Virus genome (UHGV): UHGV-1794847
From: a virus
Length of the DNA stretch: 21,029 nt
Direction: 5' to 3' (one strand)
The first letter of the stretch is position 1, and each line of letters opens with the position of its first letter. The notes beneath the pieces are model-generated. The model was given only the letters and a program-made list of their open reading frames with translations. It had not been told where the DNA came from and did not search any database. Positions 502-8,623 of the stretch are shown here, piece after piece. The position numbers and the translations under genes were made by a program.

Positions 502-1992
502 TTATGCCTTTTTAGATTTGCGCTTTGCAGCAACTACGACTTCTGCTACGATAGCTTCTACAGTAGCTTCAGTTACAACAGACTTGTCTGCAACTTTTAC
601 AAGAGCTGCATGCAACTTGTAGTTGCCGACTTTGCTGAAAGTGCACTTGAATTCTGTTGTTGCGTTGTATTCTGCAGGTACTGCAAAGCCGCTGTCAGGA
701 CCCCATGCACCACTGTCTTCGAATGTCCAAGGCTGACCCTGTGAATCTGTTGCAGTGAATGTCACATGACCATCTTCAGGTGCTTCTACAATTTCATATT
801 GCAGCTGAACGCCATCAACACCTGCCTTACCAACTACTTCAGTTGCAAGCGTTGCATTGATTGCTACTTCTGTTGCAGGCTGAATGCTTGCAGGGACATC
901 TACAGAAATCTTGTATTCTGATACTTCAGGCTGAACTGGCTCAGCAACAACTACTGTAGACTCTGCTTCAACAACTACACTGTCATCAGCAACCTTGGCA
1001 AGAACTGCATGCAATTTGTATGTGCCAGCCTTGCTAAAGATTACAGTGAACTTTGTAGTTGCATTGTATTCTGCAGGAATGTCAAAGCCTGTTGCAGGCC
1101 CCCAAGTGCCATTGTCGACAAATGTATATTCCTTGCCAGCAGCGTCAGTAGCCTTGAATGTCACATGGCCATCTTCAGGTGCTTCGTCTACACCATAGCG
1201 GAACTGAACTTTGTCAACACCGACATCACCAACAGTCTTCGTTTTGAATGTTGCATCAAGCTCAACTTCAGTGTTTTCGATGATTGTTTCAGGCGCAGAC
1301 ATTTCAAACTCATACTCAGATACTGTTTGCACAGCTTGTTCAAGTTTGATGTTCTTTGTCTTGTTTGAAATCATAGTTTCACGACCAGCCTGGCTAACGT
1401 AGCCCTCTTTAGACACTTCCCAGACAATTTCTTCGCCTGACAAAACAGTCAACGAATTGCGAACTTCACCATTCATCTTGACAACTGCATCTGCAGGTTC
1501 TACATTGATTGTCAGTGTAGCTTTGCTGAGCTCAACAAGCTCCACTACTTGAATGACATCATGGTTTGTGAGCGTGATTGTGCCCTCCTGAGATTCATAG
1601 CCCTCTTTCGACACTTCCCACTTAATTGGAATGCCTGCGGGCACATTCTCAAGCATCTTTGTAGCCTCACCATTGATTTCTACATGAGCATCTTCAGGCA
1701 CTGGCTGAATTGTGATGCTGAACTTGTCTTTGCCAGGTTCAGGGTCTGGTCCGGGTCCTGGGTCATCACCAGTAATTGCAGGGATAATTGTCTTTTCGAT
1801 GACTTTTTGAGCTTCTGCAGTTGTGCCATAGAATTTGAGAGTTTTCTTGGCTTCTTCTACAGACATTTTCTCAAGATTGTCTGCAAGATATGTCAGACCA
1901 GTGACTGCAGCAATTTTCTGCCGCATTTCTGGGCTAATGACTACACCAGTAGATTTGACCACTGGAGCAGCTTGTTTTTGTTTCTTTGCCAT
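502..1992 (-). CDS. Repeat-containing surface/structural-like protein: Pro/Gly/Asp-rich linker, two PEGA-like repeats, two Ig-like ~105-aa repeats
   Basis: ATG at 1990..1992, TAA at 502..504. Two ~60-aa repeats with PEDAHVEINGE / PADAVVKMNGE and WEVSKEGY signatures resembling the PEGA domain; two C-terminal repeats sharing VEAPEDGHVTF..WGP..PAEYNATT..FSK.G.YKLHA. Linker GDDPGPGPDPEPG. Domain names are from memory of family signatures. Confidence 0.75.
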   Translation of the reverse strand: MAKKQKQAAPVVKSTGVVISPEMRQKIAAVTGLTYLADNLEKMSVEEAKKTLKFYGTTAEAQKVIEKTIIPAITGDDPGPGPDPEPGKDKFSITIQPVPEDAHVEINGEATKMLENVPAGIPIKWEVSKEGYESQEGTITLTNHDVIQVVELVELSKATLTINVEPADAVVKMNGEVRNSLTVLSGEEIVWEVSKEGYVSQAGRETMISNKTKNIKLEQAVQTVSEYEFEMSAPETIIENTEVELDATFKTKTVGDVGVDKVQFRYGVDEAPEDGHVTFKATDAAGKEYTFVDNGTWGPATGFDIPAEYNATTKFTVIFSKAGTYKLHAVLAKVADDSVVVEAESTVVVAEPVQPEVSEYKISVDVPASIQPATEVAINATLATEVVGKAGVDGVQLQYEIVEAPEDGHVTFTATDSQGQPWTFEDSGAWGPDSGFAVPAEYNATTEFKCTFSKVGNYKLHAALVKVADKSVVTEATVEAIVAEVVVAAKRKSKKA

Positions 1993-2078: not shown

Positions 2079-2127
2079 AAAATGACCAGACTTGCAAATA
2101 AATTTAAGCAAGTCTGGTCATCAGTTT
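2079..2127 (-). terminator. Intrinsic terminator downstream of the polymerase C-terminal gene
   Basis: Perfect 14-bp inverted repeat atgaccagacttgc (2082..2095) / gcaagtctggtcat (2108..2121) with 12-nt loop, flanked by AAA on one side and TTTT (2124..2127) on the other; lies directly after the stop at 2136. Confidence 0.6.
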
Positions 2128-2135
2128 TGATTGCA

Positions 2136-3428
2136 CTACAACAATGACGGCACTCGTTGAGTTTCAAGTGGGTCACTGACATTGATGCCTGTGTATGCAA
2201 CAAGTCGTTGTATTGGGCCAAGCACGAGTTTTTCGAACATGAGTCGCTTATTCATTGGTGGCACATCTGGCATGTACTTAGGCGTTGGCATTTCACCTGG
2301 CGCAAAGCCAAATGCATCGCAATATTGACGAGAACCAATTGGGATATTTGACAAATCTGACTTTGCTCTATCGACGAAATAGTAGAACACTCTACCGCCT
2401 TCAATCAATGTATATCGTGTTTCCAATCCATGAGCTTTTACAAGTGCGTTATGGTATGCACAAGCCCTGTACTGAGGCAGTACGCCTTTTGCTAACTGCC
2501 ATTCGCCATCATAGCTTAGCACATAGTCATGATACTTGTTTGCATTGACATATGCACAAAGTTTCTCCAAGTCTTGCTCGGCTTCAAAGCGTTTCCATAA
2601 TTTCTGTATGAGCTTTGGATATGTCGCAGAAGTCAATTCACCTCTGAACATTTTCTTGAATGCATAATCAAGCATTTGCCTAACAAGCATTGATGAGCCT
2701 GTTTGAATAAGTTCGATGCCTTTGCCTTGAATGTGCTCAGTAGGGTCTTCGAATACTCGACCATCTACATATATTTGAGCCTTTAAGTACTTTTTCTTTT
2801 GGGCAAATAATGCAGTGTCAGAAATCGTTTCGAGGTCAAATAGCAAAATTGAATTGCCATGACGTTTTGCGAGGTCTGCTGCATATGCCCCATTGAATAA
2901 TTCTTCCATACGATATTTGAATATCGCAAGAATCAAGTCATACCAATTTTTGCCTATGTAGCCAATTGATTTGACAGTTGGCTCAAAGTGAATGTACAAA
3001 GAGTCTGTGTCAATATACAACACTTTGTCTTCATAGGGTTCTTGCTTTGGCGACACAGACAAATCAAAATTGCCCTTCAATTGTGGGTCATTACGCAGCT
3101 TTTCATGCAATTCATAATCACACCACCACTTATTGTTAAGATAGTCATTTGCTACTCGTTCACCAAAGTGAATGAAGTTGCGGCCTTCAGCAGTAATTGA
3201 TTCTGCAACAGCCATATTAAAGAAGTGATAGAAACGATTGCTTGTAGCGCCATATATTGAGTTTCGACAACATTTTGCTGAGACTTGTAGTCCTGCATGC
3301 TTTAGTGATTCTTGCATTGCAAAATCTCTCAATTCAAATAGACGTTCAGTAGACAACTGACTCAAATCACCAGTCAAATCTACTCCATCTATTTCAATTT
3401 TTGACATATCTATCTGAGCTTCTGCCAT
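2136..3428 (-). CDS. Family-B DNA polymerase, C-terminal part (motif B, motif C, thumb)
   Basis: Motif B KCCRNSIYG verified at 3249..3275 (K-x3-NS-x-YG) and motif C YIDTDS at 3000..3017 (YGDTDS-type). Stop TAG at 2136..2138. Start set to ATG at 3426..3428; the track's 3518 start is a TTG codon, and an alternative ATG exists at 3459..3461. Confidence 0.85.
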   Translation of the reverse strand: MAEAQIDMSKIEIDGVDLTGDLSQLSTERLFELRDFAMQESLKHAGLQVSAKCCRNSIYGATSNRFYHFFNMAVAESITAEGRNFIHFGERVANDYLNNKWWCDYELHEKLRNDPQLKGNFDLSVSPKQEPYEDKVLYIDTDSLYIHFEPTVKSIGYIGKNWYDLILAIFKYRMEELFNGAYAADLAKRHGNSILLFDLETISDTALFAQKKKYLKAQIYVDGRVFEDPTEHIQGKGIELIQTGSSMLVRQMLDYAFKKMFRGELTSATYPKLIQKLWKRFEAEQDLEKLCAYVNANKYHDYVLSYDGEWQLAKGVLPQYRACAYHNALVKAHGLETRYTLIEGGRVFYYFVDRAKSDLSNIPIGSRQYCDAFGFAPGEMPTPKYMPDVPPMNKRLMFEKLVLGPIQRLVAYTGINVSDPLETQRVPSLL

Positions 3429-3448
3429 AAGTTGTTTATTTTTGATTT

Positions 3449-3459
3449 TATTGTACAAC
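3449..3459 (-). promoter_or_regulatory. Conserved GTTGTACAATA element (sense strand), 20 nt upstream of the polymerase C-part ATG
   Basis: Plus-strand tattgtacaac at 3449..3459; identical 11-mer also at 8225..8235 and 10317..10327, each upstream of a minus-strand start. Contains a TACAAT -10-like hexamer and the palindrome TTGTACAA. Confidence 0.35.
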
Positions 3460-3496
3460 ATGCAAAACGAGTTTGCACTGTTTTGATACAACGACA

Positions 3497-4459
3497 CTAA
3501 ACTTTTACATGACCACAATCAAACACAGGATAAAATTGCCGTTGTAGCATAGTATTTGTGTCAAAATTGCCATCAATAAGATGTTCGTGTGTGCGCCAAT
3601 TATGCCAATGTTTTTGAATTGTCTGCAAGTTATCTGATTTTTGTGGATTCAATGCAAAGTCTGTTGATAGCACAGGTTCATTGTTCAAATGCGCTTGTAT
3701 TGCTGCAATAACTGCTTCAACAGACATCCACTCAAATGCAGTCACACAAATAAAACCTGCACGCAATGCATCTTGAGTTTTGTAAAAGTGATATGTTGGA
3801 TGAGTTGCTGCGCATTTTGATGCATTTTTGACAAGTGCATCAAAGCTTTTTGCGCTGTTATGCGACACTGTTGGATTGATTTCTACTACGACATTGTCAT
3901 ATCGCAAATCATACAACTTTAAGCCTATTCTGTAGTCATATTCAAAATTTATGCCAAGACGTTCAAATAGCAATGCATGCCAACGTTCATTAAGTTTTGA
4001 CTGTATTTGACCAGATGCTGCTCTGCATTTTGCATGCATGCAAAAATACGGCACATCATATCGCTCTTCACATGTTTGACGCAACTTAGCAATGTTTGCA
4101 GGCCCAAGCTTGCCAAAATGCTTAAGCTTAGTTGCATTTGCTTTGTCAGTATTGCTTGGACCTGCTTTGCCAAAATGTTCAAGCTTTGTCGCATTCGCTT
4201 TGTCAGTATTGCCTGGTCCAAGCTTGCCAAAATGTTTAAGCTTAGTCTGCTTGCATTGCTCTGTTACATATGATAACTGCATATTGTGTTCTACACCATA
4301 TTTTCGCAACATTGCAATTCGCCTGATGTATTTTCTACGAATTTTGCTGTGCGACGTCTTTCTTGGTGCGTATCTAACATATGGTGTATTTGCAATCAAC
4401 TCATCTCGCTCGTTTTCAAGTTTAGCAATACGAGCATCAATCTCTTCTTTTGTCATCAT
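3497..4459 (-). CDS. Repeat-containing putative DNA-binding / homing-endonuclease-like protein, class unassigned
   Basis: ATG at 4457..4459. Three tandem 19-aa repeats (TKLKHFGKLGPGNTDKANA) encoded by a 57-bp DNA repeat; basic N-terminus. Sits between the two polymerase halves, where freestanding endonucleases typically reside. No GIY-YIG or HNH motif recognised; the motif LYDLRYDNVVVEINPTVSH is only loosely nuclease-like. Confidence 0.55.
   Translation of the reverse strand: MMTKEEIDARIAKLENERDELIANTPYVRYAPRKTSHSKIRRKYIRRIAMLRKYGVEHNMQLSYVTEQCKQTKLKHFGKLGPGNTDKANATKLEHFGKAGPSNTDKANATKLKHFGKLGPANIAKLRQTCEERYDVPYFCMHAKCRAASGQIQSKLNERWHALLFERLGINFEYDYRIGLKLYDLRYDNVVVEINPTVSHNSAKSFDALVKNASKCAATHPTYHFYKTQDALRAGFICVTAFEWMSVEAVIAAIQAHLNNEPVLSTDFALNPQKSDNLQTIQKHWHNWRTHEHLIDGNFDTNTMLQRQFYPVFDCGHVKV
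4101..4260 (-). repeat. 57-bp in-frame tandem repeat, about 2.8 copies, inside CDS 3497..4459
   Basis: Units starting near 4108, 4165 and 4222 (gcttgccaaaatgcttaagcttagttgcatttgctttgtcagtattgc and variants); period 57 = 19 codons. Confidence 0.8.
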
Positions 4460-4467
4460 AGCAATTC

Positions 4468-4501
4468 AAAAAATGCAGCAGCAGATGTTCTGCTGCTGCA
4501 T
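4468..4501 (-). terminator. Intrinsic terminator between the SSB-like gene and the endonuclease-like gene
   Basis: Perfect 12-bp stem atgcagcagcag (4473..4484) / ctgctgctgcat (4490..4501), loop atgtt, preceded on plus by an A-run 4468..4472 (a T-run after the hairpin on the minus strand). It ends about 10 nt from the next ATG at 4459. Confidence 0.6.
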
Positions 4502-4543
4502 CGGCAGGTATCTTCACATGTGTTTGAGTTGATTACGATGTGA

Positions 4544-5371
4544 TTAGAATGGCAGGTCGCCATCGTCACCTGCAGCGTCAAATTCAGCTGCAATGTCATA
4601 TACCAACGTCATTGCGATTCGCAAATCGCGCTTCTTAGACTTCAGGCGCATGATATCATGACCAGAATTGTTTGTGATGACTGAACATTCAAACTCTTCA
4701 TTGCCATCAATAAATGACAGCATTGATTTGTGAATTGTGATTGGCGACAAATCAGATGGGTAATTTGCATCAATCACATATTCAAAGTTGTTGTTCTTGG
4801 CAATTAGCCCTCGTTCAGTCGTACGAATCTCAATGCCGGGCAATTCCTTGTCACCAGTATTCAATGAACCATACGATGACATGATGCCAAAGTGATTTGA
4901 CGTCAAATCGAGCTTTCTCAGATTTGTTGTGCTATCAAACAACATTGACATATCATTGTCAGACAGCTCAAAGTAGCCAAGTGATGGCATTGAACAAACC
5001 TGATTGATTTTGAGCTGATTGTTTGAGATTACAATGAGCTCTGCAATTGTATCTGTACCAATTTGTTTGACATAGATTTCAATCATTGCAGATGAGCCAA
5101 ATGCAGCAAGTACTCGATTGTTGAATTGCGTGCCATTGTAAATGAGCGCTTTGACTGTGACATCTTTGAGTGTAGACTCATAATGTTCGCAAATGTCAAG
5201 CACATTAAGTATCTGCGACTTTACAAAGCTACTATTGCCAGCATCAGTTCTGATTCGCTGGTCATTGAGTGAAAAGCTAAGCTTGCCATCGCATTTTAAT
5301 GATGATGCAAACAATGCTCGCAGCATATCAACGTTTGCATTGCGTAATGTAATTTTGTTCAGATTTTCCAT
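4544..5371 (-). CDS. Putative ssDNA-binding protein (SSB-like acidic C-terminal tail)
   Basis: ATG at 5369..5371. C-terminus ...AAEFDAAGDDGDLPF mirrors the acidic tail ending in Phe of bacterial SSB (DDDIPF) and T7 gp2.5; located in the replication module. Fold not verified. Confidence 0.5.
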   Translation of the reverse strand: MENLNKITLRNANVDMLRALFASSLKCDGKLSFSLNDQRIRTDAGNSSFVKSQILNVLDICEHYESTLKDVTVKALIYNGTQFNNRVLAAFGSSAMIEIYVKQIGTDTIAELIVISNNQLKINQVCSMPSLGYFELSDNDMSMLFDSTTNLRKLDLTSNHFGIMSSYGSLNTGDKELPGIEIRTTERGLIAKNNNFEYVIDANYPSDLSPITIHKSMLSFIDGNEEFECSVITNNSGHDIMRLKSKKRDLRIAMTLVYDIAAEFDAAGDDGDLPF

Positions 5372-5439: not shown

Positions 5440-5814
5440 TCATCGATTGTCGCCTGACCCATGTAGTACGCCTCGTAATTTTCGAGACTGCAGTTTCTGA
5501 ATGTTAAGCTGACAAATGTCAGTTAAGCTGTAGCCCAAATCATGTGCAAGAGTTGCAGCGTACCACATGACATCACTGAGCTCTTTTGCGATTTCCTTGC
5601 GAATGTCTTCATTGTCAAAATCGCCATTCTTGTCTCGAATGACTTTTTTGACTTTGTCTGCAACTTCGCCTGCTTCACCCGTTAAGCCAAGTGTTGGATA
5701 GATAATTGCAGCTGATTTAGGATACACTGCGCTATCAAGTGCAGCAATCTGATATTCATCAATAGTTGAAATCTGTGCATGGTCGATTACGCCATGTTCA
5801 TCTCGTTTAAGCAT
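5440..5814 (-). CDS. mazG: MazG-like nucleoside triphosphate pyrophosphohydrolase
   Basis: ATG at 5812..5814. Motifs LGLTGEAGEVADKVKK and ELSDVMWYAATLAHDLGYSL match the MazG EEXX(E/D) helix signature common in phages. Confidence 0.8.
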   Translation of the reverse strand: MLKRDEHGVIDHAQISTIDEYQIAALDSAVYPKSAAIIYPTLGLTGEAGEVADKVKKVIRDKNGDFDNEDIRKEIAKELSDVMWYAATLAHDLGYSLTDICQLNIQKLQSRKLRGVLHGSGDNR

Positions 5815-5815
5815 A

Positions 5816-6307
5816 TCATTTACGTTTTTGTTTGACTCTCAATCGTTTTTGCATAAATGCTCTTGTAGCTTCACCAAAAGCCATTTCATCTCGTTCACCG
5901 CCGCAAAGCTTTGCAAGCTTATTGAATGTGTCTTGGTCAATCATTGTGTATGTTGAGTTGTTGACCACATGCAATGCAAACTGAATCAGCGGTGTGCCTG
6001 GCTGCAAGCAGAATGGCTCTTTACCTGCATTGTACACTGCAAGATGAATCTCGCCATGATAGTCTGAATCTACAAACTCACTTGTTTTAATGATAAGATG
6101 ATTTCGTGAAATACCCGACTTGTTGTAGGCAATCAATGCATGACCAGCAGGCACAAGTGCTTTGATGCCAGATGGAATTGCAATGCCCTCGCCAGGTTGC
6201 AGCATTGTTTGCACAAAATCATTGGGTATGCAAAAGTCCCATGCGCCAGATTCTGCTGTTGACTTAAAAGGACTTTCTACATTTCTGCATTTTGCAAAGA
6301 ATAACAT
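5816..6307 (-). CDS. dut: dUTPase-like protein (dUTPase/dCTP deaminase superfamily)
   Basis: ATG at 6305..6307, stop TGA at 5816..5818, one nt before the MazG start. Motif-like segments SGAWDF, KSGISRNH, FVDSDYHGEI (compare G-x-ID-x-DYRGE), LIQF, and a C-terminal Gly-rich GGERDEMAFGEAT. Confidence 0.7.
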   Translation of the reverse strand: MLFFAKCRNVESPFKSTAESGAWDFCIPNDFVQTMLQPGEGIAIPSGIKALVPAGHALIAYNKSGISRNHLIIKTSEFVDSDYHGEIHLAVYNAGKEPFCLQPGTPLIQFALHVVNNSTYTMIDQDTFNKLAKLCGGERDEMAFGEATRAFMQKRLRVKQKRK

Positions 6308-6675: not shown

Positions 6676-6695
6676 ATTCAATTATTGTTATGGTG

Positions 6696-8201
6696 TTACA
6701 ATTTGATTGCACCTCTACGAGCAAGCTCTTCTTCAATCAATCTAACATGATTGTTAGCATACCAAAATTGCAATTTTTTGTGATAATTGCGAATGTCGCC
6801 AAGCTGTTCTTGAGTTTCTTTATACATTGAAGGCTCTCTATTGTCATACAGACAATTATTGACAGACACAAAGTAATTTGGGTCTGCTTTGTAATGCTCG
6901 ATTTCATCAGGATTTGTCAAACGTCTAATAAAGTTGTCTGGTGAAATATTCGCCGAGCGCATACTTGACGGATACAACGAGTTTGCATCAACACAGACAA
7001 CCATACGAGCCCAATGGTTAAATGGCTGCTTAACAAAGCCGCCCTCAAATGAATGTACAACATTCTCCGGACCGCCTTGAGCGCATACAACTTTACCGCC
7101 ATATTTGTTGTACAAATATGTCATCATGACGCCCTCAGATTGCTTAACTGGTCCTTGACAGTGATTCATGTCAATATTTGTCATATTTGACAATGACATT
7201 ACATTTGATATCAAGTCAGTTTTTGCAGCAATCATCGCATTGACCATCGTATCGACAGCATTATATGCAATGAACGTGCATGGATGATACAAATACAGCT
7301 CTTTAAGTGTGCAATCATAGGGCAGCTTACCTACGCCAAACATACGATGTGCAATATAGTCAAGTCGCAATGACTCTTTTTGCCACACTGAATAGTCGTA
7401 TGTGTCCATGAGTTGCATGTAGTCATCAATGTACTTGTGATATGGCATGCCATTGCCCCAGACAGTTCTGCCAACTGGAGATGCCAATGCTAAATCAATA
7501 TTGTGCATTGCGCATCGATTTTTGATATAGATGCTATCGAAGCCATTGATGTTCCAACCTGTCAATGCAGGAATGTTTTTGAAGAGCTTAGTCACCCAAA
7601 AATGCAACAATTCATGCTCATTTGCATGTTGAAAGATTTTGACAGTCGGACGCTCTTTCAAATATGCAGCAAAGCAATGCTGACCCATGTACTCTTGAAT
7701 GATGTTATTGACAAACTCAAATGCATCGTCCAGTGTTGGGTTTTGTTTGCCACAGCTTTTGCGCAAATCATCGTCATTCAACAAGTCAACAGTTGTCTGA
7801 ATGACACAATTACATTGCTCATCACATGTACTTATTGCATTAATGGGCATTTCAGCTTTGTCAGGCTTTGGAAAGCCATTGCCAATTTCAGTCTCAATAT
7901 CGTAAAAGTACAACTTTGGTCTACGATAAGCAAACAATTCAGCTTTGTCAGCTTCAGGCAATTCAAATAAGAATTGCAGTAAGTCAAATTGATTGAATCG
8001 CTTTGCTGTAACTCGAGTTACTGGCAATTTGCGCCAATCTTGAATATCTGCATATTGCGGCTCTACATGGTCTGATATTTGCCATACTGGAAATTGATAT
8101 GGCTGTTCACAGACAGGATATGTTTTAATATCAATGCCACCTTGCTCATTAACGTATGAAACTTCAATGCCATGTGACAAATATGCTACATCGACAATCA
8201 T
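6696..8201 (-). CDS. Family-B DNA polymerase, N-terminal part (3'-5' exonuclease domain plus motif A)
   Basis: Exo I FYDIETE (about 7893..7901), Exo II-like WNINGFD, Exo III-like YNAVD, and motif A DANSLYPS verified at 6966..6989. Ends with TAA at 6696..6698 about 100 aa after motif A, before any motif B. Start set to ATG 8199..8201; the track's 8237 start is TTG. Confidence 0.9.
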   Translation of the reverse strand: MIVDVAYLSHGIEVSYVNEQGGIDIKTYPVCEQPYQFPVWQISDHVEPQYADIQDWRKLPVTRVTAKRFNQFDLLQFLFELPEADKAELFAYRRPKLYFYDIETEIGNGFPKPDKAEMPINAISTCDEQCNCVIQTTVDLLNDDDLRKSCGKQNPTLDDAFEFVNNIIQEYMGQHCFAAYLKERPTVKIFQHANEHELLHFWVTKLFKNIPALTGWNINGFDSIYIKNRCAMHNIDLALASPVGRTVWGNGMPYHKYIDDYMQLMDTYDYSVWQKESLRLDYIAHRMFGVGKLPYDCTLKELYLYHPCTFIAYNAVDTMVNAMIAAKTDLISNVMSLSNMTNIDMNHCQGPVKQSEGVMMTYLYNKYGGKVVCAQGGPENVVHSFEGGFVKQPFNHWARMVVCVDANSLYPSSMRSANISPDNFIRRLTNPDEIEHYKADPNYFVSVNNCLYDNREPSMYKETQEQLGDIRNYHKKLQFWYANNHVRLIEEELARRGAIKL

Positions 8202-8212
8202 ATTATTATCTT

Positions 8213-8623
8213 TTAGAATAGAGATATTGTACAACAATTTGATTCAGGTTGCCATTCTACAATATGCGCATCAAAGTGTTTGTTAAGCCAATGTGCAAGT
8301 ATGTGTCTATGACAAAATGCAGATGGTCTGCACCAGCATAACAGTACAATGTCTCGTTCACCAGCAAGAAGCTTTATGCGATGCAGCATCAAACTTATCT
8401 GTGACAATGCAGCGTCAAGTTTTGCAGTGTATTGCTCTGCATATTGTGCATTGTCAAGCAAGCCTACTTTATGCAAACGAACAAGTGACATGTAATCAGG
8501 CATGACGTCAGTCCATGTAAAATCTGCTATGAAGCCCTTAGGTTTTGTTGCAGATACTTGAACAAGAAATGCGTTATCAGGCAGATGCCTGCATGCATAA
8601 TATGAAGTCAAGATTCTTGTCAT
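8213..8623 (-). CDS. DUF488-like protein
   Basis: ATG at 8621..8623, overlapping the upstream stop as ATGA. C-terminal RDIVLLCWCRPSAFCHRHILAHWL resembles the conserved LLC..E....CHR.l.a..L block of DUF488 (YeaO-like) proteins, recalled from memory. Confidence 0.5.
   Translation of the reverse strand: MTRILTSYYACRHLPDNAFLVQVSATKPKGFIADFTWTDVMPDYMSLVRLHKVGLLDNAQYAEQYTAKLDAALSQISLMLHRIKLLAGERDIVLLCWCRPSAFCHRHILAHWLNKHFDAHIVEWQPESNCCTISLF
8225..8235 (-). promoter_or_regulatory. Conserved GTTGTACAATA element, 23 nt upstream of the polymerase N-part ATG
   Basis: Plus tattgtacaac at 8225..8235; same 11-mer as at 3449..3459 and 10317..10327. Confidence 0.35.

What the first reader, a model, noticed from the sequence alone, without database searches (positions are those of the whole stretch)
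3497..4459. Endonuclease-like ORF with a 57-bp in-frame tandem repeat lodged between the polymerase halves
The ORF immediately upstream of the polymerase C-part carries three tandem 19-aa repeats (TKLKHFGKLGPGNTDKANA) encoded by a near-perfect 57-bp DNA repeat at 4101..4260, plus a basic N-terminus. Its position is where freestanding homing endonucleases are found in other split phage polymerase genes. I could not match it to GIY-YIG, HNH or LAGLIDADG signatures, so it may be a divergent or uncharacterised nuclease or DNA-binding family. The repeat is a likely site of copy-number variation.
Basis: partly seen in the sequence, partly recalled or inferred. Interest (0 to 1): 0.65.

Follow-up and report, generated by a model that had tools for sequence, protein, structure and literature searches.

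The report
Hef-like free-standing homing endonuclease gene
The ORF is a selfish, mobile nuclease gene of a known kind (a Hef-like, Vsr-fold homing endonuclease) sitting just upstream of the second half of a phage DNA polymerase gene; some near-identical phage genomes lack it, so it is ordinary but well documented.

Summary
The 320-aa ORF (window 3497-4459, minus strand) is real, and so is its in-frame 57-bp repeat. The repeat is not near-perfect: unit identities are 82, 70 and 58%, about 2.5 copies. A high-confidence AlphaFold model matches the I-Bth0305I homing-endonuclease catalytic domain, Vsr and RAP domains. Profile comparison links the nuclease core to an annotated Hef-like homing endonuclease (hhalign 97%). 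The repeats are three recent copies of the 19-aa helix-loop module that defines Pfam DUF7487. Relatives carry roughly 4-12 such modules.

Two about 95%-identical phage genomes lack exactly window 3461-4469 and have 34 bp there instead. Two other relatives carry the gene. Paralogues come and go next to polB-N, polB-C and other genes in those relatives, and another sits next to a terminase gene in a different phage. dN/dS between two alleles is 0.14. The polymerase split predates this gene: PAU, PTm1 and MA9V-2 share it.

Verdict: a free-standing homing endonuclease gene, a new member of a known kind. Cleavage activity and target site are untested.

The parts
3497..4459 (-). Complete ORF, 320 aa, including the stop codon: a Hef-like free-standing homing endonuclease gene.
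   Evidence: ORF list. Pfam DUF7487 and PHROG 3339 'homing endonuclease'. Called as a 320-aa gene in relative L008. dN/dS 0.14 against the L008 allele.
4382..4459 (-). aa 1-26: an acidic N-terminal helix, possibly a coiled coil for dimerisation.
   Evidence: AF2 model helix 4-24 with pLDDT 95-98. pI 4.5. The role is inferred.
4019..4381 (-). aa 27-147: a basic region carrying about five 19-aa helix-loop modules (K-x3-T-x3-[KR]-[YF]-G-x7-8). This is Pfam DUF7487 and the presumed DNA-binding array.
   Evidence: DUF7487 hit on aa 49-145. Family consensus. Predicted helices 63-77, 85-96, 104-115 and 123-134. pI 10.2. DNA binding is inferred.
4076..4246 (-). Three in-frame 57-bp units (aa 72-128). 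These are recent tandem copies of the family module.
   Evidence: TRF. Unit-by-unit identities of 82, 70 and 58%.
3680..4018 (-). aa 148-260: a Vsr-like PD-(D/E)XK nuclease domain. Conserved residues are S154, N157, D184, E193, N195, P196, H200, N201, H224, K227 and W244.
3500..3679 (-). aa 261-320: C-terminal tail with the motif HWxN..H..D...M..G..V(Y/F)DCG. Longer relatives have a Mom-like domain of about 120 aa inserted before this tail.
   Evidence: Alignment columns and linker lengths. Mom hits in 6 of 60 relatives and in the Pm5461 Hef-like protein. It is the most divergent part between alleles.
3461..4469 (-). The segment that is present or absent between near-identical genomes. The 1009-bp cassette is replaced by 34 bp in L009 and L010.
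   Evidence: blastn breakpoints. Junction sequences.
4472..4502 (-). Strong intrinsic terminator of the upstream 275-aa gene. Its stem ends 12 nt before the ORF's ATG. It is also present at empty sites.
   Evidence: Terminator scan. Fold energy -23.9 kcal/mol, z -6.6. Present in L009 and L010.
3450..3491 (-). 3' flank of the cassette: TTGTATCAAAA, then a weak hairpin (3461-3477), then TTGTACAAT. The last is a -10-like motif 21 nt before the polB-C ATG.
   Evidence: Sequence. Motif searches. The same composite element lies upstream of another gene in L008. It is triplicated in L012. Promoter function is inferred.
2136..3428 (-). polB C-terminal half (430 aa). It is the downstream neighbour and a likely beneficiary or target of homing.
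   Evidence: Pfam DNA_pol_B and PHROG 1918.
4544..5371 (-). 275-aa gene, the upstream neighbour. It is a homologue of PAU gp109, which in PAU directly precedes polB-C.
   Evidence: BLASTP 24% identity, E 4e-7. Synteny.

Best explanation
The ORF is a free-standing homing endonuclease gene of the Hef-like branch of the Vsr-like (PD-(D/E)XK) nuclease superfamily.

The protein has four parts: an N-terminal helix, a basic array of 19-aa helix-loop modules (DUF7487) that most likely binds DNA, a Vsr-fold catalytic domain, and a short conserved tail.

The proposed mechanism is intronless homing, and it is inferred. In a cell co-infected by a phage that carries the gene and one that lacks it, the enzyme cuts the gene-less genome at or near the empty intergenic site between the 275-aa gene's terminator and the polB-C promoter. 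Recombinational repair then uses the carrier genome as template and copies the gene, with some flanking sequence, into the break.

The gene sits in a transcriptionally quiet gap, right after a strong terminator and right before the polB-C -10-like motif. It is therefore probably expressed weakly, by read-through, and does little harm to the polymerase genes.

Shown here: the fold, the family, the conserved residues, purifying selection, the exact presence/absence polymorphism, and several polymorphic paralogues. Inferred: cleavage activity, the target site, DNA binding by the modules and the mode of expression.

For: Family. Pfam DUF7487 scores above its gathering threshold. PHROG 3339 'homing endonuclease' matches the ORF weakly (E 9e-4) and 48 of 60 relatives strongly. 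hhalign against the annotated Hef-like homing endonuclease of Proteus phage Pm5461 gives 97.2%, E 4e-11, over the nuclease core. A relative, P0054, hits 426 phage records annotated Hef-like or homing endonuclease, with up to 11 places per Campylobacter phage record. The family is very large: 9466 50%-identity clusters at E<=1e-3.

Integrity. D184, E193, N195, H200, H224 and K227 are invariant or nearly so, and all are present in the window protein. dN/dS is 0.14.

Mobility.
- L009 and L010 are about 95% identical on both flanks and lack window 3461-4469.
- L008 and L012 carry the gene.
- Paralogue P0004 follows polB-C in L008 and is absent from the window.
- A 399-aa paralogue follows polB-N in L010 and is absent from the window.
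- P0002 is present in L007 and absent from L008.
- L010 holds a truncated copy.
- P0003 lies next to a terminase gene in another phage.

Other points. No intron or other Rfam family is present. The same slot holds other mobile genes in distant relatives: TnpB in MA9V-2, and a DUF7487-module protein plus a 'VSR endonuclease' in PTm1. Literature: Hef of phage U5 cleaves nrdB, and free-standing endonucleases move by intronless homing (PMC2988022). Hef-type enzymes are grouped with the Vsr-like I-Bth0305I family (PMC3239194).
Against: No activity data exist for this protein or for any close relative.

Two of the five EDxHD positions differ. N157 stands where Hef-like and Vsr proteins have Glu. H224 stands where Vsr and I-Bth0305I have Asp; Hef-like proteins also have His there. 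The chemistry may therefore differ. The residue mapping rests on motif spacing, on one good profile alignment and on one insignificant alignment.

There is no sequence-level match to any solved structure.

No cluster of carrier-specific substitutions was found in the flanking genes that would mark a distant target site. Only four genomes could be compared.

The start codon has no obvious promoter of its own and follows a strong terminator.

The link from 'annotated Hef-like' to the original U5 Hef was not checked here.
Confidence: 0.75

Rival explanations
1. A domesticated or catalytically altered derivative of a homing endonuclease. It would act as a sequence-specific DNA-binding protein, for example regulating the polB-C promoter next to it or excluding competitors by binding, rather than cutting DNA.
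For: N157 and H224 replace the Glu and Asp of the EDxHD signature. The gene sits directly before a promoter-like element. Purifying selection fits any function.
Against: N157 and H224 are invariant or nearly so across a very large family that behaves as mobile DNA. The polymorphic presence of this gene and its paralogues in near-identical genomes is hard to explain without a mobility function. Relatives that lack the gene keep the same polymerase operon.
Confidence: 0.1
2. An accessory nuclease that is not self-mobilising. Examples would be degradation of host or competitor DNA, or a Vsr-type repair nickase. Gain and loss would then occur by ordinary illegitimate recombination.
For: Vsr-like fold. 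The cassette's 3' flank carries a regulatory element that also occurs elsewhere in the genome. This would allow recombination between repeated motifs.
Against: The long sequence-reading module array and the many paralogues, each lodged beside a conserved essential gene (polB-N, polB-C, terminase, portal), are the typical pattern of homing endonuclease genes. There is no significant similarity to Vsr itself.
Confidence: 0.08
3. A decaying, no longer functional remnant of a homing endonuclease gene.
For: It lacks the roughly 120-aa Mom-like domain found in many longer relatives. The C-terminal tail is the most divergent part between alleles. A truncated paralogue exists in L010.
Against: The ORF is intact in four independent alleles. 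All conserved residues are present. dN/dS is 0.14 overall and 0.15 in the tail. The short architecture is shared by many family members.
Confidence: 0.05

Closest known systems
Hef (phage U5) and 'Hef-like' free-standing homing endonucleases of T4-like, ViI-like (LIMEstone F-LimIII/VII/VIII/X) and Campylobacter phages
   Same: The nuclease core is homologous, with the motif D...ExN...H...YHxxK (hhalign 97.2% to the Pm5461 Hef-like protein; PHROG 3339). Both are free-standing and intergenic, lie beside essential genes, and occur in several copies per genome (PMC3296691; PMC2988022).
   Different: The window protein lacks the roughly 120-aa Mom-like domain of the long forms. It has Asn where the Pm5461 protein has Glu at the first catalytic position. 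It carries a DUF7487 module array, which Pfam does not detect in the Pm5461 protein. Homology to the original U5 Hef was not tested directly.
I-Bth0305I, prototype of the EDxHD homing endonuclease family (PDB 3R3P)
   Different: I-Bth0305I is intron-encoded and binds DNA through NUMOD2/HTH motifs. No sequence similarity is detectable. The E and final D of EDxHD are N157 and H224 here.
T4 seg/mob free-standing endonucleases, including seg43(25) in the split gene 43 of Aeromonas phage 25
   Same: The biology is the same: intronless homing of a gene lodged between phage genes, including at a split family-B polymerase whose split may predate the endonuclease (PMC2988022).
   Different: Their catalytic folds are GIY-YIG or HNH. 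The window ORF has no such Pfam hit.
E. coli Vsr very-short-patch repair endonuclease and DUF559/3HRL-type endonuclease-like proteins
   Different: No significant profile match. Vsr is a mismatch-specific nickase with no repeat array.
FASTK/RAP-domain proteins of organelles
   Different: They are eukaryotic RNA-binding proteins. The rmsd is large (about 12 A) and sequence identity is at background level. This is an architectural analogy, not membership.

Membership tests
Hef-like free-standing homing endonucleases (PHROG 3339) | Nuclease core homologous to annotated family members | tested here: met
   hhalign of A2 against the Pm5461 'Hef-like homing endonuclease': 97.2%, E 4e-11. PHROG 3339 matches the ORF at E 9e-4 and 48 of 60 relatives, down to E 1.5e-80.
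Hef-like free-standing homing endonucleases (PHROG 3339) | Conserved motif D...E-x-N...H...Y-H-x-x-K is intact | tested here: met
   D184, E193, N195, H200, H224 and K227 are present and invariant or nearly so. They align to the same residues in the Pm5461 protein.
Hef-like free-standing homing endonucleases (PHROG 3339) | Free-standing: not inside an intron or intein | tested here: met
   The ORF has its own start and stop in an intergenic gap. No Rfam intron is found.
Hef-like free-standing homing endonucleases (PHROG 3339) | Sporadic presence/absence at a fixed site among closely related genomes | tested here: met
   L009 and L010 lack window 3461-4469. L008 and L012 have it.
Hef-like free-standing homing endonucleases (PHROG 3339) | Site-specific cleavage of the gene-less allele and biased inheritance | not testable with these tools
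   Needs a biochemical assay or phage crosses.
EDxHD family (I-Bth0305I) | Vsr-like catalytic fold | tested here: met
   [not shown]
EDxHD family (I-Bth0305I) | Composite catalytic signature E-D-x-H-D | tested here: not met
   D184, N195 (the x position) and H200 fit. The first position is N157 and the last is H224. The mapping to Vsr rests on motif spacing and on a weak alignment.
EDxHD family (I-Bth0305I) | NUMOD2/HTH DNA-binding motifs in the N-terminal region | tested here: not met
   No NUMOD or HTH Pfam hit, even at E<=10. DUF7487 modules occupy that region instead.
EDxHD family (I-Bth0305I) | Detectable sequence similarity to I-Bth0305I | tested here: not met
   phmmer and profile searches of PDB sequences do not recover 3r3p at E<=10.
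Pfam DUF7487 | Score above the curated gathering threshold | tested here: met
   29.2 bits against a cut-off of 27, on aa 49-145. 54 of 60 relatives also match.
GIY-YIG / HNH / LAGLIDADG homing endonucleases | Match to the family's catalytic domain model | tested here: not met
   No such Pfam hit at E<=10.
Vsr mismatch-repair endonuclease | Sequence homology to Vsr | tested here: not met
   hhalign of A3 against E. coli Vsr: probability 1.2%. Only the fold is shared.

The most novel reading that the evidence does not exclude
The DUF7487 19-aa helix-loop modules would form a modular, countable DNA-reading array. Changes in module number and sequence, such as the recent triplication here, would retarget the attached Vsr-fold nuclease to new intergenic sites. 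That would explain how one family colonised the flanks of polB-N and polB-C and the neighbourhoods of the terminase and portal genes. The array could then be a natural scaffold with programmable specificity.
Probability: 0.1. Interest if true: 0.7.

Novelty: new member of a known kind. Interest (0 to 1): 0.3.

Why it matters
The finding itself is routine: one more homing endonuclease gene in a phage. It has modest practical value for two reasons.

1. It supplies natural occupied and empty alleles at about 95% identity. The cleavage site of a barely studied endonuclease class can therefore be tested directly with synthetic DNA. That class is Hef-like and carries a Pfam domain of unknown function.

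2. It shows that in this phage lineage both halves of an anciently split family-B polymerase gene are flanked by polymorphic copies of one endonuclease family. This fits the view that nuclease genes mark boundaries of genetic exchange between phages.

It also gives DUF7487 a likely role as the DNA-binding array of Vsr-fold homing endonucleases.

Tried and rejected
- Direct sequence searches of the ORF and of three family profiles against PDB sequences gave nothing meaningful.
- tblastn of the ORF and of a 135-aa family nuclease domain against 50,697 phage records gave no match. Only the longer relative P0054 connected to annotated phages.
- The word-indexed protein search found only 4 homologues. 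The exhaustive profile search was needed to see the family.
- BLASTP against the PTm1 'VSR endonuclease' was not significant. The profile comparison was modest, at 80%.
- hhalign against E. coli Vsr was not significant.
- NCBIfam gave no useful hit.
- NUMOD3 or other NUMOD similarity of the modules was looked for and not found.
- Group I/II intron, other RNA families and tRNAs: none.
- Base composition of the ORF does not differ from its surroundings.
- A search for carrier-specific substitutions in the flanking genes, which would mark a distant target site, found no cluster. Only four genomes were available.
- The idea that this ORF caused the polymerase split was rejected.
- The Sandegren 2005 Hef paper could not be read.

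Full report
**Observation**

The ORF exists on the minus strand at 3497..4459 and is 320 aa. Tandem Repeats Finder reports a 57-bp period at 4104-4247, with 2.5 copies, 83% matches and score 216. Read in frame, the units are aa 72-90 (TKLKHFGKLGPGNTDKANA), 91-109 and 110-128, which is window 4246-4076. Their DNA identities are 47/57, 40/57 and 33/57, so the repeat is real but not near-perfect.

Residues 27-147 are strongly basic, with pI 10.2. Residues 1-26 form an acidic helix.

The ORF stops 68 nt before the real start of the polB C-terminal half, ATG at 3428. The overlapping TTG start at 3518 in the ORF list is an artefact. The polB N-half is at 6696-8237. Between the halves lie a 116-aa ORF, a dUTPase-like gene, a MazG-like gene, a 275-aa gene and this ORF.

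**What the protein is**

Pfam gives DUF7487 on aa 49-145, at 29.2 bits against a cut-off of 27. PHROGs gives family 3339, 'homing endonuclease', weakly (E 9e-4). Direct searches of PDB sequences and of phage genomes found nothing.

The word-indexed protein search found four homologues, all DUF7487. An exhaustive profile search found a very large family: 9466 clusters at E<=1e-3 and 226 at E<=1e-30. Of 60 relatives, 54 match DUF7487 and 48 match PHROG 3339.

One relative, P0054, hits 426 phage records. Their annotations include 'Hef-like homing endonuclease', 'homing endonuclease' and 'putative nuclease/acetyltransferase protein'. Campylobacter phage records hold up to 11 places each.

A profile comparison with the annotated Hef-like homing endonuclease of Proteus phage Pm5461 gives 97.2% probability, E 4e-11, over the nuclease core.

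**Fold**

The first AlphaFold model used 5 sequences and was mediocre (pLDDT 65). The second used 60 sequences and reached pLDDT 91.

- the DUF559-like protein 3hrl;
- Vsr, 1cw0;
- RAP domains.

BFVD hits are 'endonuclease-like protein', 'putative homing endonuclease' and 'DUF7487 domain-containing protein'. The core is therefore a Vsr-like PD-(D/E)XK nuclease.

**Conserved residues**

Across 60 relatives N157, D184, P196, H200 and A231 are invariant. S154, E193, N201, H224, K227 and W244 are nearly so. All are present in the window protein.

The equivalences below rest on motif spacing and on the alignments to the PTm1 'VSR endonuclease' and the Pm5461 Hef-like protein:
- D184 corresponds to Vsr D51 and I-Bth0305I D196.
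- N195 corresponds to Vsr H64 and I-Bth0305I N208.
- H200 corresponds to Vsr H69 and I-Bth0305I H213.
- H224 occupies the place of Vsr D97 and I-Bth0305I D222. It is also His in the Hef-like protein.
- N157 occupies the place of the Glu of Hef-like proteins and Vsr.

The Vsr and I-Bth0305I residue numbers come from PMC3239194. The Vsr alignment itself is not significant, so this mapping is an inference. The protein therefore does not carry the strict EDxHD signature. It belongs to the Hef-like sister branch.

**The repeats**

The family consensus is a chain of modules, K-x3-T-x3-[KR]-[YF]-G-x7-8. The window protein has about five of them. The middle three are the 57-bp units, which are recent internal duplicates.

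Each module is predicted as one helix plus a Gly-rich loop.

The module region runs from 78 to 238 aa among relatives. Module number therefore varies between paralogues. The four close alleles (window, L008, L012, P0001) all have three units.

DNA binding by the array is inferred from its charge and from the architecture of other phage homing endonucleases. No NUMOD hit was found.

**Mobility**

Two IMG/VR genomes of about 175 kb, L009 and L010, match the window at about 95% on both sides. They lack window 3461-4469 and have 34 bp there instead. L008 and L012 carry the gene.

The same genomes show further polymorphic paralogues:
- P0004 lies directly after polB-C in L008 and is absent at window 2119-2139.
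- A 399-aa copy starts 9 nt after the polB-N stop in L010 and is absent at window 6691-6693.
- P0002 is present in L007 and absent in L008.
- A truncated copy sits in L010.
- A 389-aa copy lies between a gp2-like gene and the portal gene.
- P0003 lies beside a terminase gene in another phage.

dN/dS between the window and L008 alleles is 0.14. No intron or other RNA family is present. Invasion, spread to new sites and decay, always beside conserved genes, is the pattern expected of homing endonuclease genes.

**The split polymerase**

The nearest cultured phages are Chryseobacterium phage MA9V-2, Tenacibaculum phage PTm1 and Sphingomonas phage PAU, at 29-36% identity in polB-N. All have the polymerase in two or more genes with other genes in between.

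In PAU the homologue of the 275-aa gene directly precedes polB-C. In MA9V-2 a TnpB gene occupies the slot. In PTm1 the slot holds a DUF7487-module protein (gp238), an intein-containing polymerase piece and a 'VSR endonuclease'.

The split is therefore old. This ORF is a later tenant of a slot that attracts mobile genes.

**Insertion site**

On the coding strand, the 275-aa gene ends with a strong terminator (-23.9 kcal/mol, z -6.6). The ORF's ATG follows 12 nt after the stem.

After the stop codon come TTGTATCAAAA, a weak hairpin and TTGTACAAT. TTGTACAAT lies 21 nt before the polB-C ATG, and the same motif lies ahead of polB-N. The same composite element stands before another gene in L008. L012 has three tandem copies of the unit, followed by a copy of the empty-site segment.

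The gene thus sits between a terminator and a promoter-like motif. Weak read-through expression and little polarity on polB-C are inferred from that position.

No cluster of carrier-specific substitutions was seen in the flanking genes. This mildly favours a target at or near the empty site itself.

Flank identity is mosaic. The first ~300 bp of polB-C in L010 are only about 79% identical to the other three genomes. This is consistent with recombination around nuclease genes (PMC10448857).

**Verdict**

This is a free-standing Hef-like, Vsr-fold homing endonuclease gene, a new member of a known kind. The claims of an uncharacterised family, of a near-perfect repeat and of a role in the split were not.

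Interest is low to moderate. The main use is a ready-made substrate pair for testing a poorly characterised endonuclease class, and a likely role for DUF7487.

Noticed in passing
window 2119-2139 (L008 4187-5307): Relative L008 carries a second family member (P0004, 367 aa) between the polB-C stop codon and its terminator. The window has only 21 bp there.
   Followed up: partly
window 6691-6693 (L010 2488-3687): Relative L010 carries an intact 399-aa paralogue starting 9 nt after the polB-N stop. It brings a CATGTTGTACAAT motif at its 3' end. The window lacks it.
   Followed up: partly
L010 10927-11877: A truncated paralogue of 316 aa whose reading frame stops inside the nuclease domain. It looks like a decaying copy.
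   Followed up: no
window 4485-4489 (terminator loop): The 5-nt loop of the perfect-palindrome terminator is inverted between genomes. It reads AACAT in the window and L009, and ATGTT in L008 and L010. This is independent of whether the endonuclease gene is present.
   Followed up: no
window 3450-3458 and 8226-8234 (minus strand): TTGTACAAT lies about 21-24 nt upstream of the likely ATG starts of both polymerase halves and may be a -10-like promoter element. The listed TTG start of polB-N at 8237 is probably not the real start.
   Followed up: partly
L012 1317-1415: Three tandem copies of a 33-bp unit (TTGTATCAAAA plus hairpin) follow the endonuclease gene. Next comes a copy of the empty-site segment. 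TGCATTTT flanks the cassette on both sides.
   Followed up: partly
window 3120-3420 compared with L010: The first ~300 bp of polB-C are only about 79% identical in L010, but 98-100% identical among the window, L008 and L009. This is a sharp mosaic block next to the insertion site.
   Followed up: partly
window 5440-6307: dUTPase-like and MazG-like genes lie between the polymerase halves. PAU also has a dUTPase gene between its halves, so part of the intervening gene set is conserved.
   Followed up: partly
family alignment A2 (relatives such as P0054, P0029): Many longer family members have a domain of about 120 aa (IYARKC...YHLQG) that hits Pfam Mom. It lies between the nuclease domain and the shared C-terminal tail. 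Some are annotated 'nuclease/acetyltransferase'.
   Followed up: partly
[not shown]
   Followed up: no
window 502-1992: The head-fibre-like protein (Pfam Head_fiber_dimeric) has internal duplicated segments. Window 587-834 and 986-1272 cross-match at about 70% in BLAST against relatives.
   Followed up: no
window 8213-8623: A DUF488-N3a / DUF4326-like 136-aa ORF lies directly upstream of polB-N.
   Followed up: no
window 3428-3460, 4460-4470, 6682-6695: No Shine-Dalgarno-like sequence precedes the start codons of the endonuclease gene, polB-C or the 116-aa gene. Together with the Bacteroidota hosts of the nearest cultured phages, this hints at a Bacteroidota host.
   Followed up: no
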